From contig CAVQAL010000010.1 of the NCBI GenBank assembly GCA_963710575.1, positions 71,533 through 135,532 on the forward strand: a DNA stretch of 64,000 bases. The letters run 5' to 3'. The translations under genes and the position numbers were made by a program. This DNA is from an uncultured delta proteobacterium. Its GTDB lineage: Bacteria > Desulfobacterota > Syntrophia > Syntrophales > Smithellaceae. The notes beneath the pieces were generated by a model that was not told the DNA's origin, made no database searches, and worked only from the letters and a program-made list of their open reading frames with translations. The stretch's first letter is position 1. Each line of letters begins with the position of its first letter. This document shows, piece after piece, positions 26,846 to 39,173 of this stretch.

Positions 26846-26874
26846 TTGACAAACAAAAACCACCTTTCTATACT
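26846..26874 (+). promoter_or_regulatory. Sigma70-type promoter
   Basis: TTGACA-N17-TATACT matches consensus -35 exactly and -10 at 5 of 6 positions. It lies about 75 nt upstream of the 26949 GTG. Confidence 0.6.
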
Positions 26875-26948
26875 CAATTACACAGAAAGCAAGTTCTTAT
26901 CAAATCAAACCTTTCAAAGATCTTGTAATTGGCAATGAAGGATTACCC

Positions 26949-28082
26949 GTGGAATCTCCATTAATAGAAATCTTGTCTCCTTTTTCTGTCTCTGCAATTT
27001 CAATAAACAGTACGGAATTTTCCCGGTGTGTGGAAATTGCCCGCCGGTATGACGTGGAGATGCTTTTCTATTCCAGACTGAAGAAATATTATGCCGGATC
27101 TAATAACTGTATCGATGACTATCTGAAACAAATTGAACATTCATACCTGAAGGCCGTTGCCGTATCAATACGGCAGGAGGTTGTGGAAAAAGAGATTGTT
27201 GCCGCGCTTAGCAAACAGAGCATCTCTGCCTGCATCATCAAGGGAAATGAGATTGCGCGTGTCCTTTATGAAGATCCCAATTGCCGCAGTTCGGCGGACA
27301 TTGATGTGCTCATTCGAACGTCAGATCTGATTGACGCGGATAAGATTCTTTGCGGCAAAGGTTTCACTCGTCAAGATACATTGCCCTTACCGTTTTGGAT
27401 AGGCCGGTTACATCACGCAGTGTATCGTAATGCAAAAAACGGTTGCTTGCTTGAGTTGCACTGGGATTTCGGCTACCCGTTATATTTTAATTTGACTCCC
27501 GATGAAATATGGAAGGAAGTGGCCGGAAGCGACGCGGAAGGATATTCCCTTACACCGGAGGCCATGGTTATCATGCTCTTTACTCATCATTTCAGGCACG
27601 GCTTCAGGGAATTCAAAATACTGGTGGACATCCTCTGGAGCTTCCATAGATATGACGGGATAATCAATTGGCAGGAATTTACAGGAAGGCTCAAGAAGAT
27701 AGGACTTATTAAAACAACCTTAATCATCCTCGATCAATTGGATTCCCTATGGTGCTTGAGTGACAGACGGCTTGAATCCTTTAAGATTCTCCAGAAACAG
27801 CTTGCATCTTTGTCCATCCATACACCGAAATTTTTACTGCGGTATTTCAAAATTGATATAGAAAAAGAATATAAAACAAGCGGTGCACTAGACATGGAAA
27901 TGTCGAAACTTGTTCTCGATAAAAAGTCAAAGATTCTGTATTCTTTCGTTAAAATATTTTTCCCGAGACCTCAGGACATCAGAGGCTTTTATCCTGACAC
28001 CAGCAAACTAACACTTCCGTTAAACTATCTACGTTTTATCTGCTGGCGTGTAAAGCAATCGACTTGTTTTAAAAAGAAGTAA
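26949..28082 (+). CDS. Uncharacterised nucleotidyltransferase-fold protein (PF14907/NTP_transf_5-like)
   Basis: The segment CRSSADIDVLIRTSDLIDADKILCGKGF, a later HHAVYRN...LELHWDF, and the ~380 aa size are typical of the family found next to PqqD/HprK-like genes in peptide-modification clusters. The assignment is from memory of the family, not from an HMM. Confidence 0.6.
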   Translation: MESPLIEILSPFSVSAISINSTEFSRCVEIARRYDVEMLFYSRLKKYYAGSNNCIDDYLKQIEHSYLKAVAVSIRQEVVEKEIVAALSKQSISACIIKGNEIARVLYEDPNCRSSADIDVLIRTSDLIDADKILCGKGFTRQDTLPLPFWIGRLHHAVYRNAKNGCLLELHWDFGYPLYFNLTPDEIWKEVAGSDAEGYSLTPEAMVIMLFTHHFRHGFREFKILVDILWSFHRYDGIINWQEFTGRLKKIGLIKTTLIILDQLDSLWCLSDRRLESFKILQKQLASLSIHTPKFLLRYFKIDIEKEYKTSGALDMEMSKLVLDKKSKILYSFVKIFFPRPQDIRGFYPDTSKLTLPLNYLRFICWRVKQSTCFKKK

Positions 28083-28123
28083 TGGTGGTAAGTTAAAAAC
28101 ATAATGGTCGGTTACTCACTTTT

Positions 28124-29941
28124 TTAACGGTAATGTTGTGCCTGTATTTCGTAAAGGTGGGCGTACTGACCGCCCAGTTGAATCAATTCTTCATGGCTGC
28201 CACTCTCCACGATCCGTCCTTCCTTAAGAACGCAGATTAAATCAGCCATACGGACGGTGGAAAAGCGGTGGCTGATAATCAGGGCGGAACGGCCGTTGAG
28301 CAATGTGCGAAAGGCATGAAAAACCTCATGTTCCATACGGGCGCTCATAGAGCTGGTGGGCTCGTCCAAGATAATCAACTGGGCTTCTCTTAGAAATGCC
28401 CTGGCCAGCGCCACCTTCTGCCATTCGCCGATGCTGAGTTCTACACCTCCGTCAAATTGATTCCCCAAGACCGTTTCATACCCATGCGGCAGATTGCTGA
28501 TAGTTCCGTCAGCCCCTGCCTGTTGCGCAGCAAAGCAGATACGGTCGTCGTCGGGACTAATGCTCACGTCTCCGATCCAGATGTTTTCCCGTACTGTGAG
28601 CGGGTAATGTATATAATCCTGAAAGATCATGGTAATTTCCCGGCGTAGTGCTTGTGTGTCAAAATCACGGAAATCTATGCTGTCCATGGTGATCCGCCCG
28701 CCCGCAGGATCGTAGAGACGGCACAGCAGCTTGGCCAGCGTCGTCTTGCCTGCGCCATTATCGCCTACGAGAGCAACAACCTCTCCGGGACGGATTGTCA
28801 GCTCGATGTCGTGAAGAACCTCGCTACTCGCGGCGGGATACCGGAAAGAAACATGCTCCAGCGCAATGCCCACCTGCATGGGCCGGGGAACATCCGCACA
28901 ATGCGCAGGTAAGGCTGTCTGTGGCTTCAGATCCAAAAAATCATAGAAATGATTCAAAAACATACTGTCTTCATATAGACCGGCTAGTCCTCCCATGATT
29001 TCCTGCAAGTAACCTTGCGCCCGTTGAAAGGCCTGAAAATACATTACCATGTCGCCTAAAGTCATAAACCCTCGTATCGTCCGTGAGGCGATAAAGGCAA
29101 ACATACCGAAAAGCGCCATGATAGCTCCGGCTTGGGCAATCAGATCGAAAGCAGAGCGGCTTTTTACAAGTCGGAGTTGTTCCCTGCGGAGCATTTCTCG
29201 TAGGTCCCGGTACCGCCTCCGGAAGAGGTTGCCCAAATCAAACAGTCGTACTTCTTTGGCGTGGAGCTCGCCCGTTAACATCCAGTGATAGTAGTAAGTC
29301 CGCCGTTCCGTCTCTGTGCGGCTGGATTGCCATTTATAAAGACGATCGGCATGACGGATCTTAACTATTATGCCGGGTAAAACAGCGATGAATAAGACCG
29401 CGGCAACAGCCCAGTGCAGATAAAATAGGAGTCCCGCCAATGCTAGCAGGGAGATGCCGTTTTGGCTAAACTGCGTCAGGGCCTGGACTATATGGTTAGG
29501 CCGGTAGGGGGCCTCTTGCTGAGCCCTGTGGAGTGTGTCGTAGTAGCTTGGATTTTCGTAATAGACTAGATCCACTGCCGCCGATTTACGGTGAATCACA
29601 TCCGTGACGTGATCGGTAACCAACTGGCTCTGGTGTTCCCGGACGACGTCGGCCAGAGCACGGCATCCGGCAGCCAGGAGAGCCACCAGACCTGTCAGAC
29701 CGATCAATAAAAGGACATGATGCAGGGTGGCCGCTTTATTTGGGGCGCTTATTCCCGCAGTAACGGTATCCACAATCAGCTTGATCAGGTAGAGGGGCAG
29801 CAAAGGCAGAAACGCCTGTATCGCTATGAGTCCCAAACCCGCTGTCGTCCATACCCGGGCACTATCCCAGACCAGAACAAGGGCGCGGTGCAATTGCATC
29901 AGTCCACGGATTTTCTGAAAATAACTAACTTTCAAGACCAC
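28124..29941 (-). CDS. ABC exporter, fused permease + ATPase (MsbA/ABCB type)
   Basis: Six TM helices precede the NBD, with Walker A GDNGAGKTT, signature LSIGEWQ and Walker B LIILDEPTS. There is no N-terminal C39 peptidase domain. The GTG start lies 6 nt after the upstream rSAM stop. Confidence 0.88.
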   Translation of the reverse strand: MVLKVSYFQKIRGLMQLHRALVLVWDSARVWTTAGLGLIAIQAFLPLLPLYLIKLIVDTVTAGISAPNKAATLHHVLLLIGLTGLVALLAAGCRALADVVREHQSQLVTDHVTDVIHRKSAAVDLVYYENPSYYDTLHRAQQEAPYRPNHIVQALTQFSQNGISLLALAGLLFYLHWAVAAVLFIAVLPGIIVKIRHADRLYKWQSSRTETERRTYYYHWMLTGELHAKEVRLFDLGNLFRRRYRDLREMLRREQLRLVKSRSAFDLIAQAGAIMALFGMFAFIASRTIRGFMTLGDMVMYFQAFQRAQGYLQEIMGGLAGLYEDSMFLNHFYDFLDLKPQTALPAHCADVPRPMQVGIALEHVSFRYPAASSEVLHDIELTIRPGEVVALVGDNGAGKTTLAKLLCRLYDPAGGRITMDSIDFRDFDTQALRREITMIFQDYIHYPLTVRENIWIGDVSISPDDDRICFAAQQAGADGTISNLPHGYETVLGNQFDGGVELSIGEWQKVALARAFLREAQLIILDEPTSSMSARMEHEVFHAFRTLLNGRSALIISHRFSTVRMADLICVLKEGRIVESGSHEELIQLGGQYAHLYEIQAQHYR

Positions 29942-29947
29942 ACCCGT

Positions 29948-31081
29948 TTATCTCTCTAAATTAATCGGGAGCAATTCCGTCCCCTTCTTAATATTTTCCG
30001 CCCTTCTGTGAGCCACTTTGCAGAAATAAGGCGTTGAACCATCCAACATGCCCGTTTCCAAATGTGCATGGGCGGGACACCACAGGCATAGATTCACCAG
30101 CGCGCATTTTCGGCATGATTCAAGAAATTCCTTGCGTTTAGAGCGTAAATCCCGGACGCGGGGAACTAAGTTTTTCCATGCGTCCGCCAGTGTTCCCTTG
30201 CGCAAATCATAAGTTGTTCCGTCCGCCCACAAAGAAGAACACAGGCGGAAACGGCCATCGTGACTTATAGTGAAGCTGCCGTTTCCCGCGCCGCAATGGA
30301 AAAGGTGGTCGCAGCCGTAATGGGTAAATTCCTCGTTAATCAGCGTATCGCATTCCTTCCGCATGGCGTTGATGCGCTGGTCATCGCTGTTTTCCAGCGA
30401 CACGATTTGTTCCGGCGTCAAACGCTGGACACGGATTTCCTCATTGCGTTTTTGATTGCCGTCGAAGCGCAGGTGCAGTTGCGGGTCGAAACGGTAATAG
30501 TCCTTCGTCCTGGAGCGGCAAAAATCGGCAATGGCCTGCTGTTCATGTAGATTTGCCTGAATCACCATCGCTTTTAAGCGGACCCGGACATCGTTTTTCA
30601 CCAGAGCATTAAGCCCGTTAATGAACCTTTCGAATGATTCGGGGCGGCGTGTCACTGCTCCATAAGTTTCTTTCGTCACGCCGTAAACAGTGATTTCGAT
30701 GTCCCGCGGCGGGTATTTCTTGAAAAGCGCGATATGCTCTTCGTTAACCAGTGTGGCGTTGGTAAAAACCGCGACAAGCAACCCCAGACGCTTCAATCCC
30801 ATGTATATCTCGGAAAAATCTTCCCGCAAAAGCGGCTCACCTCCGGTGATGAGACACCACATAGCGCCCATTCCCGCTGCCTCGCTGGCGATGGTCATAA
30901 TTTCCGCTACCGTAAGCTCACGGCTTTGTGCCTCTTGGTCTGCTGCCGGCAAGTTTATATAGCAGTGGGCGCAGTTCATGTTGCAACGTGCCGTGATCTC
31001 GATGTCAAAAGAGATGGGCGCCTGTTTGGCCATGAGTTTATCCCAGAGAGGGAATTGCTGTATTTCGATGGTATCGGTCAT
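29948..31081 (-). CDS. Radical SAM / SPASM-domain peptide-modifying enzyme (paralog 1)
   Basis: The CxxxCxxC cluster is ARCNMNCAHCY and the SAM-binding motif is GGEPLL. The SPASM-type Cys-rich tail reads CGAGNGSFTISHDGRFRLC...CRKCALVNLCLWCPA. Confidence 0.88.
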   Translation of the reverse strand: MTDTIEIQQFPLWDKLMAKQAPISFDIEITARCNMNCAHCYINLPAADQEAQSRELTVAEIMTIASEAAGMGAMWCLITGGEPLLREDFSEIYMGLKRLGLLVAVFTNATLVNEEHIALFKKYPPRDIEITVYGVTKETYGAVTRRPESFERFINGLNALVKNDVRVRLKAMVIQANLHEQQAIADFCRSRTKDYYRFDPQLHLRFDGNQKRNEEIRVQRLTPEQIVSLENSDDQRINAMRKECDTLINEEFTHYGCDHLFHCGAGNGSFTISHDGRFRLCSSLWADGTTYDLRKGTLADAWKNLVPRVRDLRSKRKEFLESCRKCALVNLCLWCPAHAHLETGMLDGSTPYFCKVAHRRAENIKKGTELLPINLER

Positions 31082-31235
31082 ATGCCTGCCTCAATTTTTT
31101 TATTACAATTCGTCGCCGTATGGTTTTTACCTTTTCTTCATAAAGCTTTGGTTTAAGAATGGACAGAGTAATACGGAACGCAAGGGTTAAACAGGTCATG
31201 AACTACTTTCATATCACCTTCATCCGCCACAGAAA

Positions 31236-31829
31236 TCATTGCCTGAAGCGCAGTTTGCCAAGCCAGCGGTAAACTGAAAATGATTGAAAGCTACGCAAGC
31301 CATAACTTGCCGCGCGCCGCGGCATAATCAAGAGCTTTTTCAAACACAAAAGCGCTTTGCCGCGATTAAGAATCGCGATGAGTTCCCCGGCTTTCCCGAT
31401 TCCCCGATGCGCTTCCATTCCCTGGCGTTCAACGCGGCAAACACGGCCTATAATATTTTCGGTTGCAACTACTCCGTCCGAATCCGGGCAATTATCTCCC
31501 CTGATAAGCCAACCGTCGTCTGTTCGTCCAATAATGCGATGGATGGCAAGTTTTCCGGTACTGGGTTTTTTAAAGGCGACAACATCTCCCAGCGACGGTT
31601 GCATTTCTTTTATAGGCGAAATCGTCAAGACATCTTTATCGCGAATGAAAGGCTGCATGCTGAATCCCCGCGCCGTCGTGCGTAAAGCCACGCCGCTTTC
31701 CATCATAGCAAGAAGCAACTCAAGTTGTCCCAGGTCGGATAGGCTTAACTCTCCGCCTTGAAAAACGTATTGTGAATCCGATATGCCTGATGATGAAATA
31801 TTGTTAGAGTAATTCATCTCGCTCGACAT
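31236..31829 (-). CDS. S26B (SipW/Sec11-like) or S24-type serine peptidase, candidate leader peptidase
   Basis: The nucleophile motif is GFSMQP. It is followed by AIHRIIG...IRGDNCPDSD, which resembles the Ser/His-type signal peptidase motifs (HR...GDN). No TM anchor is obvious. Confidence 0.6.
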   Translation of the reverse strand: MSSEMNYSNNISSSGISDSQYVFQGGELSLSDLGQLELLLAMMESGVALRTTARGFSMQPFIRDKDVLTISPIKEMQPSLGDVVAFKKPSTGKLAIHRIIGRTDDGWLIRGDNCPDSDGVVATENIIGRVCRVERQGMEAHRGIGKAGELIAILNRGKALLCLKKLLIMPRRAASYGLRSFQSFSVYRWLGKLRFRQ

Positions 31830-31889
31830 TTAACCTTTTTCCATTGTTTGGAAAATCAACATTTGACTCATTCGTCAATTCTTATAAGA

Positions 31890-32198
31890 TCAATCATTTT
31901 TAACTGCCAGAATTCCCCGTTTGACCATCTCGGCGGCAAACCCCAGCACATCGGCTTTTATTTCCTCGGCAGTTGAGGAAAATTCGTCCATCAATTCCAC
32001 CGAAATCTTCTTCAACGATCGATGCCCGTTGAGTTTTTTCCAGATTGCTTTGCCGGTTTCGTTGAGCGTATAGAGTTCATCGTCCGCATCGCCGATCCCG
32101 GCAACCAGCGGCACAATGATCATGTCTCCTTCAATTTCCCGCGCCACCACATCATCCGACGGCACGCAGATGGTATCCACTGTCACTTTTGTTTCCAT
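31890..32198 (-). CDS. PqqD-family RRE (peptide chaperone) protein
   Basis: The start is moved to METKV (AGAGG lies 9 nt upstream). The segment AREIEGDMIIVPL...ELYTLNETGKAIWKKLNGHRSLKKISVELMDEFS...IKADVLGFAAEMVKRGIL is the classic PqqD winged-helix pattern. Confidence 0.75.
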   Translation of the reverse strand: METKVTVDTICVPSDDVVAREIEGDMIIVPLVAGIGDADDELYTLNETGKAIWKKLNGHRSLKKISVELMDEFSSTAEEIKADVLGFAAEMVKRGILAVKND

Positions 32199-32339
32199 AA
32201 AAATCAACCTCTTTAAGTAATATTTCCCCCATGCAATTCGGGTGTGCTTTTGCTTTTTCAATCTGCTATAGTAAAGTACCTAAAATGACAAAAAAGTAAA
32301 AAGTCATGATCATTCCTTACTTGTTCTAGATACTTGGAA

Positions 32340-32558: not shown

Positions 32559-33347
32559 TTATGTCTGCCGTTTCTGAAGAAGCGCCTCACCGCGCCCAGG
32601 AATATTGTTGGGAATATGCAGCCAAACCACATCAAATCCGCCTGCGGCGAATTCTGCCCGCAGATCACTTTCCGACGAAAAAGTGTGGATAAACTCAACA
32701 TTGCCCCACAACATATCGCCGCGCTCATACGAACGGTTGCCCATTGTGAGCCAGGTGATTATTTGGCATAAGAATGCACCTTTGGAAGAAAATTGCTGGC
32801 GTGTGTCCCATTGGAATTGGCAGGCTAAATAGCCGCCCGGTTTTAGTGCGCGGCACGCGTGCCGGAGCATTTGCACGCGGCGGGCACGAGAGGGTAAACA
32901 TGAATACATCCCGGCAAAGATCCAGACGACATCATATGCTTCGGTGGGCACGTCAAGGGCGGCAATATCCTGCACGAGCCCTTTGATTTGCACGTTGTAG
33001 CGGGCGGCATTGGCTATAGCGCCTTCAACCATCTCCGGAATAAAATCTACGCCGGTTACATCAAATCCCATTCGGGCAAAGGAAATGGCTTCCCTTCCTC
33101 CTCCCACACCAAGCAACAATAGTTGCCCTGTTCTGGGTGGAAGGCGTTCCAACAGTTGCAACTCTTCGGGATGGAGTCCTTCCGCGACAACATCATCTCT
33201 GTTCCAACCTTCTATGCTCCTTAGCTTTGCATAATGCTGACGGCTGAACTCTACCAACTCGTCGGAAGTCATAACCATCACAGCTGATTTCTGGATGAAA
33301 GCACCCAGGCGAATCAATCCGCGCGCCAGCGCGATATGCAATTTCAT
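32559..33347 (-). CDS. Class I SAM-dependent methyltransferase
   Basis: Motif I is LLLLGVGGGREAI, with the acidic post-I FDVTGVDF. GAGAGGA precedes the ATG. Confidence 0.75.
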   Translation of the reverse strand: MKLHIALARGLIRLGAFIQKSAVMVMTSDELVEFSRQHYAKLRSIEGWNRDDVVAEGLHPEELQLLERLPPRTGQLLLLGVGGGREAISFARMGFDVTGVDFIPEMVEGAIANAARYNVQIKGLVQDIAALDVPTEAYDVVWIFAGMYSCLPSRARRVQMLRHACRALKPGGYLACQFQWDTRQQFSSKGAFLCQIITWLTMGNRSYERGDMLWGNVEFIHTFSSESDLRAEFAAGGFDVVWLHIPNNIPGRGEALLQKRQT

Positions 33348-33502: not shown

Positions 33503-33833
33503 TTCTTGCGAGTTATAATATAAAGAAAATCAAAGACCATTTAAAGTGCAAGGAGTACAATCATGCGAAGGATAATAAAACGGGCAACGCTCAACGTGTT
33601 TAGGTTAAATGCTGAAGACCGAAAACTAATCTCTTTTCCTTCAGCTTAAAGTCTAACTCCCTCCGGCCTCATTGTTTTGGGTGCAACCCCGTCCGGATAC
33701 ACGTACATCGACTCATAAAGATAAAAACCAAACGTTAAACCTTTCTGATTTATCGGTTGGTTTTTATTCGCGAGTTGGGATGCCAGCGTGGAGCGGAAGG
33801 ATCCCGTAGTGGTTATAATATTGGATAACCTTA

Positions 33834-34010
33834 TTATGAGGTTACATTTGTATTGCAAAAGGTACCACACCCGGCGGTTGTACCACAATTGTTGTGGTGC
33901 GTGCCGGTTGCTCCGGCTGCTGTTCCTTTGCAAGTTGTCAAAACTTGTTCTTGGCTGTTTGTTTTAACAAGTACTGTAATTTTGGGCTTTGTCCACATAA
34001 GTTTTTTCAT
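33834..34010 (-). CDS. RiPP precursor peptide (58 aa), unannotated in ORF track
   Basis: AAGGAGGG lies 8 nt upstream of the ATG. The translation is MKKLMWTKPKITVLVKTNSQEQVLTTCKGTAAGATGTHHNNCGTTAGCGTFCNTNVTS. It sits in the middle of the rSAM/PqqD operon and has its own promoter-like element. Confidence 0.7.
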   Translation of the reverse strand: MKKLMWTKPKITVLVKTNSQEQVLTTCKGTAAGATGTHHNNCGTTAGCGTFCNTNVTS

Positions 34011-34033
34011 ATATTTTGCCCTCCTTTTTGTAA

Positions 34034-34062
34034 AGGATATGTAATAGTTGATTGTATGTCAA
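34034..34062 (-). promoter_or_regulatory. Sigma70-type promoter directly upstream of the precursor gene
   Basis: The minus strand reads TTGACA-N17-TATCCT and ends about 24 nt before the ATG. Confidence 0.5.
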
Positions 34063-34175
34063 GGAAAAATATTGTAGGAATTTACTTATTCGAAGCATAA
34101 TCATCTATAAAGCGATAAAGATAAAGCATGCGAGGGTGAACAAGAAAAATTGTTTCAAGTTCTGACCTGACTTCG

Positions 34176-35387
34176 TTACCCTTTCACTCTTTCTTCCCAA
34201 TAAAGAACCTCCCACGCTTTTTCTCTATTCTTCAGCCAGCCCAAAGATCTGCCTTGGGCGTGGGCAACTTCACATAGATATTCAACCGGCGTATCCAGAG
34301 TCCCGTGCTCCGCCCAGGATTTTGCCGGACACTGTTCGCACAGCCCCTTAAGAAAACAGACAGCGCAACGGCGCAGGTAGTCGGGATTGGTAGCTTTGAT
34401 GGTCTTAAGATTTTTGAAAAAATCAAGGGCTTCAGATAACATATTATGCTTCTGATATACCGGTTCATTTTCGGGATTGCTTTGGTGGCTTTCGCCCCCT
34501 CGCAATAACAAATTCCGCAGAAGATTGAAGGACAACTCCGGCGCGCGCACGCCCATGCAGAGATGAGCAAATCCATAGGCATCAATACACATGCCGTTAC
34601 CAGCTCCGCATCGGAAAAGTGCGTCGCCCGGCGGTCCCATGAATTTTCCCGCAAATTCTTTCATAGCCTTACGATATTTTGCCGCATCCCTCATCAATAT
34701 AGCCACGCCTTCTTGGGGTGAAAGACGAAGTGACGCTATCAAAGTATTCTTTTTCTCATTGTCTCGTCGATTGCGCAGATCTAAGAACAGGGAATAGCTC
34801 GGGCGTTCGTCCATCCAGGGGATTGTGTTTGCCCATGCTTCAAATTCATTCATCTCGGCTTTGTTGGGTGGCAAAATGGCGCTTTTGACGACAAAAGGAA
34901 TCTTGCGATCGAATAGCAAATCCACGCCCCGCTTGAATTGGGCAAACGAACCTGGCATGCGCGAGACCGCCTCATACGATTCCTTTCGCATGCCGTAAAC
35001 GGTGATTTCCATGAACACGAGCGGCGGAATGTGTACTAAAAGATCCGCCAATTGCGGCGTAATCAGGCGGGCGTTAGTGAAGATGAGGACTTTCAGACCC
35101 AATCGGCGGGCGAAAAGATATAGATCCTCGAAGTCAGGCCGCAAAAGCGGTTCGCCGCCGGTGAAGCGCACTTGCAGGCAACCCAGATCCGCGGCCTCAG
35201 TAAGAATGCTTTTTACCTGTCCGGTCGTCATCTCGCGTGCTTTGGCCGCGCGGTCATTGGCCGGCAGATTAATACAACAATGGATGCAGTCGTTATCACA
35301 CCGCTCGGTAAGTTCAATATCCAGAGATCCTAAGCGTGAGGCAATCTTTTTTTCCGAGTTTTTCACAAGTTGAACAAATTCAGACAT
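34176..35387 (-). CDS. Radical SAM / SPASM-domain peptide-modifying enzyme (paralog 2)
   Basis: The start is moved to MSEFVQL (35387), because the longer track ORF would overlap the upstream gene by 115 nt. The cluster is ERCDNDCIHCC, with GGEPLL. The SPASM tail reads CGAGNGMCIDAYGFAHLC...CAVCFLKGLCEQCPA. Confidence 0.88.
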   Translation of the reverse strand: MSEFVQLVKNSEKKIASRLGSLDIELTERCDNDCIHCCINLPANDRAAKAREMTTGQVKSILTEAADLGCLQVRFTGGEPLLRPDFEDLYLFARRLGLKVLIFTNARLITPQLADLLVHIPPLVFMEITVYGMRKESYEAVSRMPGSFAQFKRGVDLLFDRKIPFVVKSAILPPNKAEMNEFEAWANTIPWMDERPSYSLFLDLRNRRDNEKKNTLIASLRLSPQEGVAILMRDAAKYRKAMKEFAGKFMGPPGDALFRCGAGNGMCIDAYGFAHLCMGVRAPELSFNLLRNLLLRGGESHQSNPENEPVYQKHNMLSEALDFFKNLKTIKATNPDYLRRCAVCFLKGLCEQCPAKSWAEHGTLDTPVEYLCEVAHAQGRSLGWLKNREKAWEVLYWEERVKG

Positions 35388-35410
35388 GGCTTGATATAAC
35401 CTTAGTATCT

Positions 35411-37474
35411 CTATTCTATCTTTAACAACTCTTCGACAATCGCGCCTGATTTGTCGAAGCGCATGGTATAGCAGGGGATCTCTTGGACTATGCGCTCCAG
35501 AAGGTCCAACTCCTTTTGCCACCATTCGGCAGTAACCATGGGGCGGATAAGCGTGGCCAAAAGATTATGCCAAATCTTTTTGCGGTCGGTCAAAGCCTCA
35601 ATTTTATTTAACCTATCCTGCTTTAAAAACAAGATAGCGCAAAGAGGCGCCGAAGACGGCGATACATCGGCGGTAGTGCCGTGGCTCCATGTGCCGTGGA
35701 CAAGCCATTGACCATTACCATTTCTTTTTCCCCCTTTCACTCGGGCGGAAGTTGGCTTTTGCCCTGTCGTCTTGTCGGGCCAGTAGCGCAAGATATTGCG
35801 GTCGTCGCACAGAATTTCCAGCGAAATTCTATCTTTGCGATTTTCCGCTTTGAGCAATTCCATCGTCGTGGATTTGCCGGCTTCGGAATGGCCGACAAAG
35901 ACCAGTCCCTTGCCGTTGACAATAGCCGCCGCCGAATGCACAAGGATTGCGTCGCGGTCGGCAAGCAGAGGCCCCAGCCAGATCTGATCCGTCGGGAAGT
36001 GAGAAAGCGATTGCCAGCCGTCGGTGAGAATGCGGTCGATTTCGCCAGGCTCGCTGTAAATTGTGCCACGGACATGGTCGGCGCTGAAAACGGCCAGACG
36101 GTGATGGAAGTCATCTCCTTTTGTGTGCGGGATGATACGATAGAACCAGGCACCGTTATTGTTGCGGGAAATTGCCCAAGGCGGATTGTGGAAGAGTTCT
36201 TTGCCCAAACTCTTTCCCTCCAAATCCGGCAACTCGAAGTAGTGGCGAAACTCTACATTGTCTTTGCCGGGGCCTTCCACAGAAAATACCATCAGTTCAT
36301 CCTTGAATTTGATCTTGCTGAAATCCAGATCGCTTTCGATCCGGGCGGTAATGCCCGCAATCCGGAAATAGCGGCGATGATTCTTCTGCCAATCCTCCTT
36401 GCATTTGCGCTCTTCTTTTGCAATGGCGCATAAATCCGGGACGGGAGCGGAATAACGCTCCGTTTCCAGATACGCATAGCCAGGGCACCAACAGCAATCA
36501 TTTCGGCTTTCACAGGAGGCGCAATTTGTTCGCCATTCATTGTCACCTCGTATCTTGTCGGCACAGGAGGGAATGAAAGTATTCCAAGCCTCTGCAAAGG
36601 TTCCTCGTCGCAAATCATAGCGTAGGGCATTGTCCTTAATCAACTCGCACCACGACATCCGGCCGTAGGGGTCAATATGAAATATTCGCCGCTCGGCTAT
36701 ACACCGGGCAAACAGGCGGTCGTCACCTTCGTTAACAGCACCGCAAGCCGCTTCGATATGATTTTCCCCCTCCATTTCGCAGGCGCGTTTTCCCAATTCG
36801 GCTATCCGCTCATAATAGGTCAAATCGGGTTTATCTAGATTGATAACATCCGAGGGAGATAATCTCTGTTTCTGAATCTCTTTGTTCCTCTGCATTGAAC
36901 TATCGCAGGAAAGGCAAAGCCAAGATGCGCCGCAACGCCAATGTTTGCTCAGTGATTTCGCAAGGGCGATCATTTCCTCCCATTGATGATAATTGGCTCG
37001 CATGGGAACCAACTGGACAATGAAGCCGGCTCTCTCTTTCTTCAGGTAATCAAAGCCGTTCATCACCTTTTCGAATCCTCCGGGATTGCGGGTGACGTGA
37101 TCATAGACCTCGGCGGTCGCACCATAGAGAGCGATCATCTTTGTTCCTTTGCGGGTCAGTAAGCGGGCAATTTCCGGCGTTATAAGCGTCCCGTTGGTGT
37201 TGATGCTGTAGGAGACAGCCTTGCGGGTGAGGTAATCGAATATCTCAGGAAAATCAGGCCGCAGCAGCGGCTCGCCGCCGGAAATGTTCCAGTGGCGGCA
37301 ACCCATGGCGCGGGCGTCGTCAACGATACGCCGGATTTCGTCAAATGTTAGTTCGTTTTTCTTCTCCGGCGCGTTGATGGGCAGGGAAATCCAACAGTGA
37401 CGGCAGTTGTTGTTGCACCGGTAGGTCAAGTCAATGTGGCCTTCCAGGGGGAGACGAGGAATTTCGTTGATCAT
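35411..37474 (-). CDS. Radical SAM/SPASM enzyme fused to a C-terminal HprK-like P-loop kinase domain
   Basis: Residues 1-~360 carry YRCNNNCRHCW, GGEPLL and CASCESRNDCCWCPG (SPASM). Residues ~370-687 carry LVHSAAAIVNGKGLVFVGHSEAGKSTT, typical of HPr kinase-related proteins. It is one uninterrupted 687-codon frame. Confidence 0.8.
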   Translation of the reverse strand: MINEIPRLPLEGHIDLTYRCNNNCRHCWISLPINAPEKKNELTFDEIRRIVDDARAMGCRHWNISGGEPLLRPDFPEIFDYLTRKAVSYSINTNGTLITPEIARLLTRKGTKMIALYGATAEVYDHVTRNPGGFEKVMNGFDYLKKERAGFIVQLVPMRANYHQWEEMIALAKSLSKHWRCGASWLCLSCDSSMQRNKEIQKQRLSPSDVINLDKPDLTYYERIAELGKRACEMEGENHIEAACGAVNEGDDRLFARCIAERRIFHIDPYGRMSWCELIKDNALRYDLRRGTFAEAWNTFIPSCADKIRGDNEWRTNCASCESRNDCCWCPGYAYLETERYSAPVPDLCAIAKEERKCKEDWQKNHRRYFRIAGITARIESDLDFSKIKFKDELMVFSVEGPGKDNVEFRHYFELPDLEGKSLGKELFHNPPWAISRNNNGAWFYRIIPHTKGDDFHHRLAVFSADHVRGTIYSEPGEIDRILTDGWQSLSHFPTDQIWLGPLLADRDAILVHSAAAIVNGKGLVFVGHSEAGKSTTMELLKAENRKDRISLEILCDDRNILRYWPDKTTGQKPTSARVKGGKRNGNGQWLVHGTWSHGTTADVSPSSAPLCAILFLKQDRLNKIEALTDRKKIWHNLLATLIRPMVTAEWWQKELDLLERIVQEIPCYTMRFDKSGAIVEELLKIE

Positions 37475-37518
37475 GGTAATATGGTCCTATAAAATCATAA
37501 TAAATTTTCACTTTGAAA

Positions 37519-37547
37519 TATATAACGTGCCGGCCTCGTTGAGTCAA
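37519..37547 (-). promoter_or_regulatory. Sigma70-type promoter for the minus-strand rSAM operon
   Basis: The minus strand reads TTGACT-N17-TATATA, about 45 nt upstream of the 37474 ATG. Confidence 0.55.
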
Positions 37548-37689
37548 CGTAGCCATTATATAATAGGCAAATTGTTTATATCAAAAGCACCAAAAATGCA
37601 ACTGATGTCGTCATCTTCGCTCAATAACATTTATTTATAAGGCAATAAAAGCCCCGTATCTTCAGCGTGATCATTAGTGCCACACACTC

Positions 37690-37740
37690 ACATTTTGTGG
37701 TCAAGATTTCCTTGACACACAAGACTTGGTTTCTTATACT
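37690..37740 (+). promoter_or_regulatory. Sigma70-type promoter with shared upstream module
   Basis: ACATTTTGTGGTCAAGATTTCC-TTGACA-N17-TATACT. The near-palindrome TGTGGTCAAG-N5-CTTGACACA spans the -35. It lies about 170 nt upstream of the HemN-like gene. Confidence 0.6.
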
Positions 37741-37910
37741 TCTTCTACAAAAAGGAAATTTTTATCACAAGACCGCGTAAGAAGATTATCTGCGCCACAC
37801 AGAAGAGGAACCCATAATCTTTAACAATAGTTGAGTAACTACGACCGGGACGAAATCCTGATGCAGCTGGAATATGACCGCGCGAATAGCGGGCAGGGCA
37901 AGAAAAGAAA

Positions 37911-39173
37911 ATGACTAAACCTTTAAACGATGAGGTGAAAAATTTACGCGATATATCTTTATTATATGTAAATATACCTTTTTGCAAATCCAGATGCCAT
38001 TTTTGTTGTTTCTGCAGGACTTTTGGCCGTGATTTATTATCGTTAAAGAAGCTGAAAAGCTCATACATAAAAGCTGTCAAGTATGAACTTGCAGTAAAAA
38101 GTTTTTATTATACTGCAAAACACAGCGTCAATTTAAAGGCGATCAATTTCGGAGGCGGTACCCCTACCCTGCTTGCAGCTGACGAGTTGGGTGATCTCCT
38201 TTCCTCGATCGTAGAGCTTTTCGGTCAGAAAATCGAAGATATAAAAGATATTAGCATAGAAGCGACGCCCGATTCTTTAACGCTTTCTAAATTAAAACAG
38301 TTGAGGTGTGCAGGATTTAACAGGATAAGTATCGGGGCCCAGACATTCGAAAAGCGGATCTTAAATAAATTAAATCGTTCCCATTCCATCGAAGATTTTT
38401 ATAACGCTTACGACCGGGCGCGTTTGGCGGGGTTTAAGAATATCAATATTGATCTATTGTATGGTATTCCGACCCAAACCTTTGAAGATTTAAAAAACGA
38501 CCTTGAAACAATTGTCAAAATTGATCCGGAGCACATATCTCCATCTCCATTGATGGCGGTAAAGAGCGTTTTATTTGAGCCGGCAGATAAGAAGAAAAGT
38601 AAGGCTGTAATGAAAGAAAATAGATGGGCAGGCTATGTCCACGAGTTTTTAGAAGATAAGGGGTACCGGAATTATTTTCATAAGTATTTTTCGAAGATCG
38701 GACGGGAATCTATAACGGAATTGGTCTACTTTTATGATATTCCGTATATTGGCATAGGTCCTGGAGCTACAAGTTGGTTCGGGGATAACCCTTCTGACAT
38801 CAAATCTTATATCGATAAACCTGTTTCGGGTGAGATATTCACAAAGAATACGCCATACAATCCATTGAGAGTAATATTTTCGATGCTTCTTTTCCCGGAG
38901 GGTATTTATATACCGTATTTTAACGAACGATACGCGTGTGATTTAGAGGAGCTAGTGGGAAATCCACGACTAGGGCTAGATTTTTTTACGAAATTTGGAG
39001 ATTGTTCGCAGGAGACCATAAAAGAAGTTAGAACGCGGCAAAAGGAACTTGTAATGACGATAAAGAAATGGAAAGCGAAAGGCGCAATCGAAAAGAAAGG
39101 CGATTATCTTCGTATTACTCCGTCGGCACGATTCTCCAAAGAAATGTGGGGATTGTATATGACATCGATATAA
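37911..39173 (+). CDS. HemN/HemW-like radical SAM protein (class C rSAM methyltransferase-like)
   Basis: The cluster is YVNIPFCKSRCHFCCF, with GGGTPTLL and a HemN-like C-terminal domain. It is divergent from the rSAM operon. Confidence 0.8.
   Translation: MTKPLNDEVKNLRDISLLYVNIPFCKSRCHFCCFCRTFGRDLLSLKKLKSSYIKAVKYELAVKSFYYTAKHSVNLKAINFGGGTPTLLAADELGDLLSSIVELFGQKIEDIKDISIEATPDSLTLSKLKQLRCAGFNRISIGAQTFEKRILNKLNRSHSIEDFYNAYDRARLAGFKNINIDLLYGIPTQTFEDLKNDLETIVKIDPEHISPSPLMAVKSVLFEPADKKKSKAVMKENRWAGYVHEFLEDKGYRNYFHKYFSKIGRESITELVYFYDIPYIGIGPGATSWFGDNPSDIKSYIDKPVSGEIFTKNTPYNPLRVIFSMLLFPEGIYIPYFNERYACDLEELVGNPRLGLDFFTKFGDCSQETIKEVRTRQKELVMTIKKWKAKGAIEKKGDYLRITPSARFSKEMWGLYMTSI

What the first reader, a model, noticed from the sequence alone, without database searches (positions are those of the whole stretch)
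26846..39173. Multi-radical-SAM RiPP-type gene cluster that fits no class I can name
Eight co-directional minus-strand genes (37474 down to 28124) plus two flanking plus-strand genes make up the cluster. It encodes three paralogous radical SAM/SPASM enzymes (CNNNCRHCW, CDNDCIHCC, CNMNCAHCY), a HemN-like radical SAM (CKSRCHFCC) and a PqqD-type RRE protein. It also encodes a class I methyltransferase, a SipW/S24-like peptidase, an MsbA-type ABC exporter, a PF14907-like nucleotidyltransferase and an HprK-like kinase domain. All of these surround a 58-codon peptide gene. I see no lasso cyclase or B protease, LanB/C/M, YcaO or ATP-grasp gene. Three paralogous SPASM enzymes acting on one short Cys/Thr-rich core, together with kinase and nucleotidyltransferase tailoring, is an unusual combination. 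This is the best candidate in the window for an undescribed system.
Basis: partly seen in the sequence, partly recalled or inferred. Interest (0 to 1): 0.88.

Follow-up and report, generated by a model that had tools for sequence, protein, structure and literature searches.

The report
Unnamed three-radical-SAM peptide maturation cluster
This is a real gene cluster for making a small, heavily modified, exported peptide; it belongs to a large, unnamed and unstudied family found in oxygen-free environments across many bacterial phyla and in methanogenic archaea, so the chemistry of its product is still open.

Summary
Nine belong together. They encode a 58-aa precursor, a PqqD-type leader-binding protein, three paralogous radical SAM/SPASM enzymes, a signal-peptidase-like Ser-His protease, an ABC exporter, a PF14907 nucleotidyltransferase and an accessory methyltransferase. 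The first radical SAM enzyme carries a C-terminal ScmC (PF27840) domain with an HprK/PEPCK kinase fold. The HemN-like gene is only a neighbour; none of the 80 related loci has a convincing copy.

The same cassette, in the same order, occurs in genomes of a dozen or more phylum-level lineages, including Methanomicrobiales. It comes with a precursor family that no database names. The leader is W-x-K-P-x-L-x-V-L-x-R-x-x-P-E-E-x-V-L-x-x. It is followed by an invariant Cys-Lys, a hypervariable core of three or four Cys, and a fixed C-x5-Ser end.

No curated radical SAM maturase model reaches its cut-off. The nearest named relative is the SynChlorMet cassette, which as I recall is only computationally defined. 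The kinase, nucleotidyltransferase, PqqD and exporter set matches the tailoring module of paeninodin/pseudomycoidin lasso clusters, which phosphorylate a C-terminal Ser.

Best reading: an uncharacterised RiPP family with Cys-centred radical SAM cross-links and C-terminal Ser tailoring. The chemistry is inferred, not shown.

The parts
26949..28082 (+). PF14907 (NTP_transf_5) nucleotidyltransferase, convergent with the operon. Candidate tailoring enzyme.
   Evidence: Pfam 118.5 bits against a gathering score of 31.2. It contains an A-D-I-D-V-L DxD motif. A gene of this kind is detectable in 24 of 48 loci that hold all five core genes. It sits in the same convergent position in the near relatives L003, L005 and L010 (63-80% identity) and is co-directional in distant ones.
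28124..29941 (-). ABC exporter of MsbA/HlyB architecture (TMD plus NBD, no C39 peptidase domain).
   Evidence: Pfam ABC_membrane plus ABC_tran. Best NCBIfam hits are MsbA-like and all fall below cut-off. It follows rSAM3 in 28 of 48 complete loci.
29948..31081 (-). Radical SAM/SPASM enzyme 3 (CNMNCAHCY).
   Evidence: Radical_SAM plus SPASM Pfam hits. The CxxxCxxC motif and a 7-Cys SPASM set are conserved in 52 homologues. The best NCBIfam full-length match is ScmE at 93 bits against a cut-off of 400. It is a core gene in synteny.
31236..31829 (-). Signal-peptidase-like (clan SF, S24/S26) Ser-His protease. Presumed leader peptidase. This copy lacks the GNAT domain that many homologues carry.
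   Evidence: Weak S24/S26/sigpep_I_arch/SodX HMM hits. G55, S57, M58, P60, H97, R98, G111 and D112 are invariant. AF2 model at pLDDT 78.8. Best PDB matches are SEC11A/C, SpsB, SipA, LexA and UmuD. Fusions to PqqD exist, as do fusions to GNAT.
31890..32261 (-). PqqD-family RRE (leader-binding protein). The true start is probably Met22 at about 32198.
   Evidence: Pfam PqqD 51.7 bits against 23.4. Below cut-off for the PQQ, SCM, lasso and GeoRSP PqqD models. It is a core gene in synteny. Conserved positions begin at residue 34.
32559..33347 (-). Class I SAM methyltransferase. Accessory tailoring gene, variable among relatives.
   Evidence: Methyltransf_25/11. Present in only 6 of 80 related loci and at different positions.
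33834..34010 (-). Precursor peptide gene (58 aa): MKKLMWTKPKITVLVKTNSQEQVLTT|CKGTAAGATGTHHNNCGTTAGCGTFCNTNVTS.
   Evidence: Shine-Dalgarno AAGGAGG about 8 nt upstream. Family profile E=8e-19. It has the invariant W, P, E, L and C-K, a second invariant Cys, C-x5-S at the C-terminus and 4 Cys in all. The identical peptide occurs on two other metagenome contigs. It is the only family member in the window.
34034..34062 (-). Sigma-70-like promoter match directly upstream of the precursor gene.
   Evidence: TTGACA-17-TATCCT, 10 of 12 matches. This is a consensus match only; the number of such sites in the region is no higher than in shuffles.
34176..35387 (-). Radical SAM/SPASM enzyme 2 (CDNDCIHCC), 403 aa counted from Met47 of the 449-aa ORF.
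   Evidence: Radical_SAM Pfam hit. CxxxCxxC plus a 7-Cys SPASM set are conserved in 52 homologues. Called as 403 aa on an identical contig. It is a core gene immediately after rSAM1 in almost all loci.
36380..37474 (-). Radical SAM/SPASM domain 1 (CNNNCRHCW). N-terminal half of the 687-aa fusion protein.
   Evidence: Radical_SAM Pfam hit. Invariant C20/C24/C27 plus C258, C276, C318, C321, C327, C330 and C349. The best NCBIfam hit is MftC at 105 bits against a cut-off of 265. This domain is absent in the two-rSAM variant loci.
35411..36379 (-). ScmC-like (PF27840) HprK/PEPCK-fold P-loop domain. C-terminal half of the same 687-aa protein. Presumed kinase acting on the precursor.
   Evidence: PF27840:ScmC is precomputed on this protein and on nearly all homologues. 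AF2 model at pLDDT 87.3. Foldseek matches PEPCK at E=1e-8 and HprK/P 1kkl at E=6e-5. Invariant H513-S514, G528-H-S-x-A-G-K534-S-T and C556-D-D-R-N. The domain is standalone (about 310 aa) in six loci.

Best explanation
The region is a biosynthetic operon for a ribosomally made, post-translationally modified and exported peptide. It is one member of a large unnamed family.

Shown:
- A 58-aa precursor with a strongly conserved leader and a hypervariable Cys-containing core.
- A PqqD-type leader-binding protein.
- Three paralogous radical SAM enzymes, each with a complete SPASM auxiliary-cluster motif.
- A signal-peptidase-fold Ser-His protease.
- An ABC exporter.
- An HprK/PEPCK-fold P-loop domain fused to the first radical SAM enzyme.
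- A PF14907 nucleotidyltransferase.

Inferred pathway:
1. PqqD binds the W-x-K-P-x-L-x-V-L strand of the leader and presents the core to the enzymes.
2. Each radical SAM/SPASM enzyme installs one cross-link centred on a core Cys. A thioether of the sacti/ranthi type is most likely. The fused enzyme serves the extra Cys of the C-terminal CxxC/CxxxC pair.
3. The ScmC-like domain uses ATP to phosphorylate the invariant C-terminal Ser. That Ser always lies six residues after the last Cys.
4. The nucleotidyltransferase may decorate the phosphate further, as in pseudomycoidin.
5. The methyltransferase adds a strain-specific methyl group.
6. The protease removes the leader, plausibly just before the invariant Cys-Lys, where position -3 is Leu and -1 is small.
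7. The ABC transporter exports the product.
For: Gene content and domains.

Synteny:
- 48 of 80 related loci hold all five core genes (fused rSAM1-ScmC or standalone ScmC, rSAM2, PqqD, protease, rSAM3), nearly always in that order. Most of the others are truncated contigs.
- The ABC exporter is in 28 of those 48 and the nucleotidyltransferase in 24.

Precursor family:
- 122 ORFs in 63 of 80 loci, 1-10 per locus.
- 433 database proteins match the profile. Where a source names them they are 'hypothetical protein', and the 120 listed carry no Pfam domain.
- Invariant W, P, E, L, C-K and a second Cys.
- The C-terminal residue is Ser in 102 of 120 and Thr in 6. Most other endings belong to visibly truncated ORFs.
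- Exactly six residues follow the last Cys in 87 of 101.
- 4 Cys in 72 of 101 and 3 Cys in 17 of 101.

Enzyme number tracks Cys number:
- Six loci have a standalone ScmC and only two radical SAM genes. All six have 3-Cys precursors.
- 47 of 52 fused, three-rSAM loci have a precursor with at least 4 Cys. Fisher p=1e-5, not corrected for phylogeny.

Kinase fold and motif:
- Searches give the fold.
- Invariant His, Lys and Asp-Asp match the His-Lys-Asp-Asp motif reported as essential in lasso-peptide kinases. Those kinases phosphorylate the conserved C-terminal Ser of their precursors (review PMC9266682).
- PsmN, an 'uncharacterised nucleotidyltransferase', adds hexose to that phospho-Ser.

Protease:
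- Fold and Ser/His motif.
- PqqD-protease fusion proteins exist.
- Leader position -3 is Leu in 78 of 79, and -1 is A/G/S/T in 51 of 79.

Precedent: two radical SAM enzymes co-operate on one thioether peptide in thuricin CD (PMC12093266) and ruminococcin C (PMC8188230), as seen in the abstracts listed.
Against: - No chemistry is known for any member.
- The three radical SAM enzymes are only generically similar to characterised enzymes. Their best PDB sequence matches are BlsE, PqqE and SkfB at E=1e-7 to 1e-9 over the core domain only. Thioether formation is therefore a guess from the Cys pattern.
- Their best NCBIfam hits are cofactor enzymes (AhbD, MftC, NirJ), not sacti/ranthi synthases.
- Direct sequence homology of the ScmC-like domain to a lasso kinase was not tested, because no lasso kinase sequence was at hand. 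Similarity to HprK is at fold level (TM about 0.25-0.48).
- Five fused loci carry only 3-Cys precursors. The Cys-to-enzyme correspondence is therefore not strict, and the six standalone loci could descend from a single evolutionary event.
- The nucleotidyltransferase is detectable in only about half of the complete loci.
- The cleavage site is inferred from a rule for membrane signal peptidases.
Confidence: 0.6

Rival explanations
1. It is an ordinary sactipeptide or ranthipeptide cluster. The radical SAM enzymes make Cys-S to C-alpha or C-beta/gamma thioethers, and the kinase-like domain and nucleotidyltransferase are incidental. On this view it is a new member of a known class rather than a new kind.
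For: - SPASM radical SAM enzymes plus an RRE plus a Cys-containing precursor plus an ABC exporter.
- There are sub-threshold hits to StsB, AlbA, SkfB and PapB maturase models.
- Multi-rSAM sactipeptide clusters exist (thuricin CD and RumC).
Against: - All sacti/ranthi maturase models score 46-72 bits against cut-offs of 300-850, lower than the hits to cofactor enzymes.
- The precursor has its donor Cys at the C-terminal end, an invariant Cys-Lys and an invariant C-x5-Ser terminus. As far as I recall, no characterised sacti/ranthipeptide shows these features.
- The ScmC-like domain is fused to, or adjacent to, the radical SAM genes in every locus. The loci were found through that domain, but 1531 sequence clusters carry it.
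Confidence: 0.2
2. It is a peptide-derived redox cofactor or enzyme-maturation system, like PQQ, mycofactocin or heme d1/AhbD-type chemistry, and not a secreted natural product.
For: - The best NCBIfam hits of the radical SAM enzymes are AhbD, MftC, NirJ and PqqE.
- A PqqD partner is present.
- MftC acts on the C-terminal residues of its peptide (my knowledge of the family), and here the C-terminus is the conserved part of the core.
Against: - All of those hits are far below cut-off.
- The core is hypervariable apart from Cys and the terminal Ser, and it is multi-copy in many loci, up to 10. That is the signature of diversifying natural products, not of a cofactor.
- A dedicated ABC exporter follows in most complete loci.
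- No cognate oxidoreductase is conserved nearby.
Confidence: 0.07
3. The cassette serves the capsule/EPS locus in which it sits. It might make a peptide that is attached to, regulates or anchors surface polysaccharide or PEP-CTERM proteins, rather than a free bioactive peptide.
For: - In the window the cassette lies between Wzi and a PEP-CTERM protein on one side and Wza-Wzc-CpsB and the rest of a polysaccharide locus on the other.
- Wzc-like genes flank the cassette in 13 loci from several phyla.
- A PMT_2 glycosyltransferase is an occasional neighbour.
- From memory, HprK-related kinase, PqqD and nucleotidyltransferase sets have been noted by NCBIfam curators near exosortase loci. I did not test this.
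Against: - Most loci with at least 4 kb of flank show no EPS gene.
- The cassette carries its own exporter.
- EPS loci are common landing sites for islands, and the cassette has a higher G+C (0.475-0.51) than its flanks (0.37-0.44).
Confidence: 0.08
4. The ScmC-like domain is not a peptide kinase. It is a nucleotide-dependent scaffold or substrate-binding module for the radical SAM enzymes. The invariant C-terminal Ser is conserved for another reason, for example as the acceptor of a cross-link from the Cys six residues upstream, or as an export or recognition signal.
For: - The fixed C-x5-S spacing (87 of 101) suggests that the two residues are read or joined together.
- The top Foldseek matches are PEPCK rather than a protein kinase.
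- No HMM for HprK reaches significance beyond the P-loop.
Against: - The Walker A Lys, the upstream His and the Asp-Asp pair are invariant, as in active HprK/P and in lasso kinases.
- The occasional replacement of the terminal Ser is Thr. That fits a hydroxyl acceptor.
- Co-occurrence with PF14907, and sometimes with a sulfotransferase, mirrors lasso tailoring sets.
Confidence: 0.25

Closest known systems
SynChlorMet (SCM) cassette: ScmC, ScmD, ScmE, ScmF (NCBIfam TIGR04248-TIGR04251; Pfam PF27840 ScmC). As I recall it is a computationally defined radical SAM/SPASM cassette with no characterised product.
   Same: Both combine an ScmC-type HprK-like protein, a PqqD homologue and paralogous PqqE-like radical SAM/SPASM enzymes. 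The window proteins hit ScmE, ScmF, ScmD and ScmC. Pfam's ScmC model marks the C-terminal domain. Six related loci have exactly the SCM layout, with a standalone ScmC-like protein and two radical SAM genes.
   Different: Every SCM model is missed by a wide margin, both here (93, 92, 32 and 15 bits against cut-offs of 400, 400, 100 and 125) and in the two-rSAM variants. This family has a third radical SAM domain fused to ScmC. It also has a signal-peptidase-like protease (often with GNAT), an ABC exporter, a PF14907 enzyme and an identifiable precursor family. Whether true SCM cassettes use the same precursor was not tested.
Tailoring module of paeninodin/pseudomycoidin-type lasso peptide clusters (PadeK/ThcoK/PsmK kinase, PsmN nucleotidyltransferase, PqqD-like B1, ABC exporter).
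   Same: Both have an HprK-family kinase with a His-Lys-Asp-Asp motif, an 'uncharacterised nucleotidyltransferase', a PqqD RRE, an ABC exporter and precursors that end in a conserved Ser. Sulfotransferases are occasional extras in both.
   Different: There is no lasso cyclase (Asn-synthetase homologue) and no B2 transglutaminase-type protease. Three SPASM radical SAM enzymes and a Ser-His signal-peptidase-like protease take their place. The kinase-like domain is fused to a radical SAM enzyme. Phosphorylation is inferred here, not shown.
Sactipeptides and ranthipeptides (for example subtilosin/AlbA, thuricin CD/TrnC-TrnD, ruminococcin C/RumMC1-2, freyrasin/PapB).
   Same: They share SPASM radical SAM maturases, usually with an RRE, acting on Cys of a leader-bearing precursor. 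Some clusters use two radical SAM enzymes.
   Different: No maturase model reaches its cut-off. The three enzymes here are separate and appear to track Cys number. The Cys-Lys junction, the C-x5-Ser terminus and the kinase-like domain are not features of those classes, as far as I know.
Mycofactocin system (MftA/MftB/MftC).
   Same: Both pair a radical SAM/SPASM enzyme with a PqqD-family chaperone. MftC is the best NCBIfam hit of radical SAM domain 1, at 105 bits over its full length. From my knowledge of the family, MftC acts on the extreme C-terminus of its peptide, and here the C-terminus is the conserved part of the core.
   Different: The score is below the cut-off of 265. The precursor has no Val-Tyr end, its core is hypervariable, an exporter is present, and there are none of the other mft genes.

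Membership tests
RiPP biosynthetic gene cluster (generic) | A small precursor gene with a conserved leader and a variable core, conserved next to the modifying enzymes | tested here: met
   122 family ORFs in 63 of 80 syntenic loci, with an invariant leader motif and a hypervariable core.
RiPP biosynthetic gene cluster (generic) | RiPP recognition element (PqqD-like) present | tested here: met
   PF05402 at 51.7 bits against a gathering score of 23.4. It is a core gene in synteny.
RiPP biosynthetic gene cluster (generic) | A modified peptide product is demonstrated | not testable with these tools
   This needs expression and mass spectrometry.
Radical SAM/SPASM subfamily | CxxxCxxC plus the C-terminal 7-8 Cys motif for two auxiliary [4Fe-4S] clusters | tested here: met
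   All three paralogues have both motifs, conserved across 18-52 homologues. The Pfam SPASM model itself passes only for rSAM3.
SynChlorMet cassette (TIGR04248-04251) | Each protein reaches the curated cut-off of its ScmC, ScmD, ScmE or ScmF model | tested here: not met
   ScmE 93.3 against 400; ScmF 91.6 and 71.4 against 400; ScmD 32.5 against 100; ScmC 14.9 against 125. The two-rSAM variant loci also miss the cut-offs.
SynChlorMet cassette (TIGR04248-04251) | Architecture: ScmC-type protein plus PqqD homologue plus two paralogous radical SAM/SPASM proteins | tested here: inconclusive
   All component types are present, and the PF27840 ScmC domain is detected. Here, however, ScmC is fused to a third radical SAM domain. 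Six relatives have the plain layout.
Sactipeptide / ranthipeptide maturases | Match to a curated maturase model (AlbA, SkfB, StsB, PapB and others) at or above cut-off | tested here: not met
   The best scores are 46-72 bits against cut-offs of 300-850.
Sactipeptide / ranthipeptide maturases | Cys-S to carbon thioether cross-links in the product | not testable with these tools
   This needs MS/MS or NMR.
Lasso peptide cluster | Lasso cyclase (Asn-synthetase-like C protein) and B2 transglutaminase-type leader protease | tested here: inconclusive
   None of the ten cluster genes or the ten flanking genes scanned has such a domain. No recurrent gene of this kind turned up in related loci, though only some of the recurrent gene groups were annotated. 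The lasso PqqD models are below cut-off, at 27.3 against 80 and 20.7 against 70. No model for the C or B2 protein was run, so their absence is by default, not by test.
HprK/P-like (PEPCK-fold) P-loop kinases | The fold, plus Walker A Lys, an upstream His and an Asp-Asp catalytic pair | tested here: met
   Foldseek matches PEPCK at E=1e-8 and HprK/P 1kkl at E=6e-5, probability 1.0, on a model of pLDDT 87.3. H513, K534 and D557-D558 are invariant. Residue-by-residue equivalence to HprK/P was not checked.
HprK-related kinase A/B systems (TIGR04352, TIGR04355) | Reaches the curated cut-off | tested here: not met
   HprK_rel_B scores 17.1 bits against 200. There is no hit to HprK_rel_A or to its PqqD partner model.
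Lasso-type C-terminal Ser kinases (PadeK/ThcoK/PsmK) | Sequence homology to a characterised member, and phosphorylation of the precursor's C-terminal Ser | not tested
Only the shared motif and the conserved C-terminal Ser (102 of 120) were compared.
Peptidase clan SF (S24 LexA-like / S26 signal peptidase) | The fold, plus the nucleophile Ser in a GxSMxP-type motif and a general base (Lys, or His in the Sec11/SipW type) | tested here: met
   Foldseek top hits are SEC11A/C, SpsB, SipA, LexA and UmuD. S57 and H97 are invariant. Many homologues carry a precomputed PF00717 hit. The window protein's own Pfam scores are just below the gathering score.
PF14907 nucleotidyltransferase | Pfam gathering score reached; DxD metal-binding motif present | tested here: met
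   118.5 bits against 31.2. The sequence contains ADIDVL. Whether PsmN belongs to the same Pfam family was not tested.
GeoRSP system (TIGR04302-04304) | Reaches the curated cut-offs | tested here: not met
   geo_PqqD_fam scores 23.8 against 100 and GeoRSP_rSAM 48.7 against 400.

The most novel reading that the evidence does not exclude
This is the type example of a new RiPP class, widespread in uncultured anaerobes and exchanged between syntrophic bacteria and methanogenic archaea. In this reading, two or three dedicated SPASM enzymes each install one Cys-derived cross-link. An HprK/PEPCK-fold kinase fused to one of them activates the invariant C-terminal Ser. The phosphate either carries sugar or nucleotide decorations, or serves as a leaving group. 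In the second case the Cys fixed six residues upstream closes a C-terminal ring, giving a kinase-driven lanthionine-like closure without any LanB/C/M/KC enzyme. The same work would supply the missing precursor for the SynChlorMet cassette.
Probability: 0.3. Interest if true: 0.8.

Novelty: new variant of a known kind. Interest (0 to 1): 0.62.

Why it matters
Radical SAM RiPPs have been a rich recent source of new peptide chemistry. Here a whole family is visible only in metagenome-assembled genomes, carries no family-level annotation, and appears in none of the papers I could search. Its size:
- More than 120 full-length homologues of the fusion enzyme, each at 59% identity or more.
- 433 precursors.
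- 121 hits among 185,579 species-representative genomes, spanning a dozen or more phylum-level lineages and including Methanomicrobiales.

The precursor rules are sharp enough to design experiments at once. They are the Cys-Lys junction, three or four Cys, the C-x5-Ser end, and the correlation of the fourth Cys with the fused third enzyme. Combining a lasso-type kinase/nucleotidyltransferase tailoring set with a radical SAM scaffold would show that this tailoring module moves between RiPP classes. The cassette occurs in syntrophs and in their methanogen partners, and it often lies next to capsule genes. Both points raise an ecological question about what these peptides do in anaerobic consortia.

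Tried and rejected
- Curated models. NCBIfam and Pfam scans of all ten proteins gave no radical SAM maturase, PqqD subtype or HprK-related model above cut-off, and nothing at all for the precursor.
- Defence system. The PADLOC scan gave only generic radical SAM similarity to viperin models and a generic methyltransferase hit. Rejected.
- HemN-like gene as a member. It is absent from all 80 related loci apart from one weak hit. In the nearest relative, L003, Wza abuts the first radical SAM gene. The gene lies in a low-GC stretch. Rejected.
- Bona fide SCM cassette in the two-rSAM relatives. Their scores are still far below cut-off. Rejected.
- Methyltransferase and GNAT as strict alternatives. 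18 complete loci have neither, and one may have both. Not supported.
- Sequence search of the kinase-like domain against PDB sequences gave only P-loop noise. The fold search was needed.
- PDB sequence searches with the three radical SAM enzymes found only distant core-domain matches to BlsE, PqqE, SkfB and MoaA. These are no guide to chemistry.
- Extra precursors or an RNA element in the 486-nt spacer after the precursor gene. There was no family match in any frame and no Rfam hit.
- Literature. Eight full-text searches found no description of this cassette. They covered radical SAM with HPr kinase and nucleotidyltransferase, SynChlorMet/GeoRSP/PF27840, C-terminal serine phosphorylation, PF14907, leader motifs such as KPELIVL, 'three radical SAM', and HprK with radical SAM. 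Two of these were swamped by unrelated meanings of 'SCMC' and 'three RAS'. Subscription-journal papers are not covered, so absence is not proof.

Full report
**What is in the sequence**

On the minus strand, from 37474 down to 28124, lie eight genes:
- a 687-aa protein (35411-37474);
- a 449-aa ORF (34176-35525), which overlaps the previous gene by 115 nt and most likely starts at Met47 (about 35387, giving 403 aa; a gene caller made the same call on an identical contig);
- a 58-codon ORF (33834-34010);
- a 262-aa methyltransferase (32559-33347);
- a 123-aa PqqD protein (31890-32261);
- a 197-aa protease-like protein (31236-31829);
- a 377-aa radical SAM protein (29948-31081);
- a 605-aa ABC exporter (28124-29941).

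On the plus strand, a 377-aa protein (26949-28082) and a 420-aa HemN-like protein (37911-39173) flank them.

Pfam and NCBIfam confirm the following:
- PF14907 (118.5 bits);
- ABC_membrane plus ABC_tran;
- PqqD (51.7 bits);
- Methyltransf_25/11;
- Radical_SAM in four proteins.

The three paralogues share 28-33% identity. Each has CxxxCxxC plus a seven-Cys SPASM motif that is conserved across homologues.

The cassette is richer in G+C (0.475-0.51) than its flanks (0.37-0.44).

**The two weakly supported domain calls hold up at fold level**

The C-terminal 320 residues of the 687-aa protein give only faint HMM hits: HprK-related kinase B at E=0.0024 and ScmC at E=0.012. Precomputed annotation marks this protein and nearly all its homologues with Pfam PF27840, whose name is ScmC.

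An AlphaFold model of the domain built from 30 homologues (pLDDT 87.3) matches ATP-dependent PEP carboxykinases (E=1e-8). It also matches HPr kinase/phosphorylase (1kkl, E=6e-5, probability 1.0). These two families share one P-loop kinase fold.

Across 18 homologues the following are invariant: H513-S514, G528-H-S-x-A-G-K534-S-T and C556-D-D-R-N.

The 197-aa protein scores just under the S24 and S26 gathering thresholds. Its model (pLDDT 78.8) is closest to the catalytic SEC11A/C subunits of human signal peptidase, then SpsB, SipA, LexA and UmuD. G55-x-S57-M-x-P, H97-R98 and G111-D112 are invariant in 36 sequences. It is therefore a Ser-His, Sec11/SipW-type member of clan SF.

**The cassette is one member of a very large family**

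- The 687-aa protein has thousands of database relatives. The best 120 are all full length and at least 59% identical.
- The ScmC-like domain alone finds 1531 clusters at 50% identity with E<=1e-3 and 126 with E<=1e-30. These are split between proteins of about 300 aa and fusions of about 650 aa.
- A scan of one genome per species (185,579 species) returned 121 loci, of which 80 were fetched.
- The record titles name these lineages: Smithella and Syntrophaceae, Geobacter, Desulfomonilia, Desulfobaccales, Anaeromyxobacter, Acidobacteriota, Aminicenantes, Chloroflexi and Dehalococcoidia, Planctomycetota, Omnitrophota, Synergistaceae, Actinomycetes, Bacillota, Spirochaetota and KSB1.
- Methanolinea, Methanoregula, Methanospirillum and other Methanomicrobiales also appear, at 52-61% identity.
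- The nearest relative (82%) is a Smithella MAG, and its flanking genes are syntenic with the window. The window therefore probably comes from a Smithella-like syntroph.

**Synteny defines the unit**

tblastn of the window proteins against the 80 loci shows a recurrent order: rSAM1-ScmC, rSAM2, precursor(s), PqqD, protease, rSAM3, ABC exporter, PF14907.
- All five core genes are present in 48 loci. Most of the rest are truncated contigs.
- The exporter is found in 28 of those 48 and PF14907 in 24. PF14907 was confirmed by Pfam in distant loci.
- The methyltransferase occurs in only six loci and at different positions. It is an accessory.
- The HemN-like gene has no counterpart apart from one weak hit. 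In the closest relative the polysaccharide exporter Wza abuts the first radical SAM gene directly. It is a neighbour.

**The precursor family**

Weak tblastn hits of the 58-aa peptide were turned into a profile. That profile finds 122 small ORFs in 63 of 80 loci, at one to ten per locus, and exactly one in the window. Against the protein database the profile finds 433 sequences. Where a source names them they are 'hypothetical protein', and the 120 listed carry no Pfam domain.

The leader is W-x-K-P-x-L-x-V-L-x-R-x-x-P-E-E-x-V-L-x-x, followed by an invariant Cys-Lys. After that the sequence is hypervariable, except for these features:
- a second Cys lies 13-20 residues on;
- one or two further Cys follow; when two, they are spaced CxxC or CxxxC;
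- exactly six residues follow the last Cys (87 of 101);
- the C-terminal residue is Ser in 102 of 120 and Thr in 6, and most other endings belong to visibly truncated ORFs.

Four Cys is the norm (72 of 101) and three the main alternative (17 of 101).

The window gene has a strong ribosome-binding site and a promoter-like site. Identical copies occur on two other metagenome contigs.

**Enzyme number tracks Cys number**

In six loci the ScmC-like protein stands alone (about 310 aa) and there are only two radical SAM genes. All six have 3-Cys precursors. By contrast, 47 of 52 loci with the fused third enzyme have a precursor with at least four Cys (Fisher p=1e-5, not corrected for relatedness, and with five exceptions).

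This suggests one radical SAM enzyme per Cys beyond the Cys-Lys junction. It also places the target of the fused enzyme in the C-terminal CxxC region, next to the terminal Ser that its kinase-like partner would address.

**Links between parts**

- Some homologues of the protease are fused to PqqD (P0429, P0433 and P0448). This ties the protease to the leader-bound substrate.
- About half are fused to a C-terminal GNAT acetyltransferase. This suggests capping of the new N-terminus. The window copy lacks the GNAT.
- Leader position -3 is Leu in 78 of 79, and position -1 is Ala, Gly, Ser or Thr in 51 of 79. These fit the -3/-1 rule of type I signal peptidases (established knowledge). Cleavage just before Cys-Lys is therefore the simplest guess.

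**Comparison with what is known**

- No curated radical SAM maturase model comes near its cut-off. The best are AhbD, MftC, ScmE/ScmF and NirJ at 70-105 bits against cut-offs of 265-500. Sacti/ranthi models score lower.
- PDB sequence matches are limited to the radical SAM core of BlsE, PqqE, SkfB and MoaA.
- The nearest named system is the SynChlorMet cassette (ScmC, ScmD, ScmE, ScmF). From memory, its curators describe it as a peptide-modification cassette with an unidentified precursor. It shares all component types, but membership fails for every protein, both here and in the two-rSAM variants.
- The kinase-like domain, PF14907, PqqD, the ABC exporter and the C-terminal Ser precursors reproduce the tailoring module of paeninodin/pseudomycoidin lasso clusters. 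There, HprK-type kinases with an essential His-Lys-Asp-Asp motif phosphorylate the conserved C-terminal Ser of the precursor. An 'uncharacterised nucleotidyltransferase' (PsmN) then adds hexose to the phosphate (PMC9266682; PMC6993621).
- Sulfotransferases, noted in anaerobe lasso clusters (PMC4289311), also appear in three loci of this family.
- No lasso cyclase or B2 protease is present.
- Eight full-text literature searches found no description of the cassette. Paywalled papers are not covered.

**Most likely mechanism**

- Shown: the parts list, the precursor rules and the folds.
- Inferred:
  1. PqqD binds the leader.
  2. Two or three SPASM enzymes each make one Cys-centred cross-link, probably a thioether.
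  3. The fused kinase-like domain phosphorylates the C-terminal Ser.
  4. PF14907 may extend that group.
  5. The methyltransferase (or GNAT elsewhere) adds a strain-specific cap.
  6. The protease removes the leader.
  7. The ABC transporter exports the product.
- The fixed C-x5-Ser spacing leaves room for a more unusual outcome. In that outcome the activated Ser and the last Cys are joined.
- Rivals: an ordinary sacti/ranthipeptide, a cofactor system, a capsule-locus function, or a non-kinase role for ScmC. Each is listed with its evidence. None is excluded by computation alone.

**Verdict**

The interpretation as an unassigned multi-radical-SAM RiPP cluster is supported. The cluster is not unique, however. 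It is a member of a large, unannotated family related to the SynChlorMet cassette, and its tailoring set has a lasso-peptide precedent. I rate it a new variant of a known kind, with interest of about 0.6.

Noticed in passing
window 37911-39173 (+): A HemN/HemW-like radical SAM gene (TIGR00539, 185 bits against a cut-off of 205) sits in a low-GC (0.37) stretch between the cassette and Wza. It is absent from all related loci apart from one weak hit, so it looks like an unrelated neighbour or an insertion. A strain-specific class-C methyltransferase role is not excluded.
   Followed up: partly
window 23992-26540 and 39820-47502; loci L003, L005-L007, L021, L024, L054, L058, L067, L070, L073, L075, L080: The cassette is embedded in a capsule/EPS locus. 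On one side are a PEP-CTERM protein and Wzi. On the other are Wza, Wzc, CpsB, UDP-GlcNAc 2-epimerase and a Wzx-type flippase. Wzc-like genes lie within 10 kb of the cassette in 13 loci from several phyla. No background rate was computed.
   Followed up: partly
L005:12034-13062 and about 25 other loci; proteins P0396, P0399, P0402 and others; P0429, P0433, P0448: In about half of the loci the signal-peptidase-like protease is fused to a C-terminal GNAT acetyltransferase (PF00583, E=4e-19). In a few proteins it is fused to an N-terminal PqqD domain. The window copy (197 aa) has neither.
   Followed up: partly
L033:11500-19300 (uncultured Dehalococcoidia): One locus carries ten precursor genes with near-identical leaders and different cores, spread between the radical SAM genes. 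This is a prochlorosin-like expansion.
   Followed up: no
L026, L031, L038, L042, L043, L061 (Methanolinea, Methanospirillum, Methanoregula, Methanomicrobiales): Hydrogenotrophic methanogens carry the whole cassette, with 52-61% identity of the fusion enzyme to the Smithella-like window copy. This points to transfer between bacteria and archaea that share syntrophic habitats.
   Followed up: no
window 33348-33833 (-): A 486-nt non-coding spacer lies between the precursor gene and the methyltransferase, with a GCTGAAG...CTTCAGC hairpin near 33610-33645. It holds no precursor remnant in any frame and gives no Rfam match. The same spacing is seen on contig L001.
   Followed up: partly
L014:4232-4819; L055:16079-17608; L041:13823-15391; L005:9414-9776: Occasional extra genes lie inside or beside the cassette. 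They are a sulfotransferase (3 loci), a PMT_2-type membrane glycosyltransferase (5 loci), a fourth non-SPASM radical SAM protein (3 loci) and a 23S rRNA-intervening-sequence protein inserted between rSAM1 and rSAM2 (5 loci).
   Followed up: partly
window 28000-38000 compared with flanks; L003: G+C is 0.475-0.51 across the cassette against 0.37-0.44 in the flanks. In the closest relative, L003, the outer genes are 80-89% identical, but the central protease (32%) and methyltransferase (34%) are much more divergent, as if the middle of the cassette had been exchanged.
   Followed up: no
window 17456-20130 (-): A pyridoxal-dependent Orn/Arg/DAP-type decarboxylase lies next to a saccharopine-dehydrogenase-like protein, a pairing typical of polyamine (carboxy(nor)spermidine) synthesis. 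It is unrelated to the finding.
   Followed up: no
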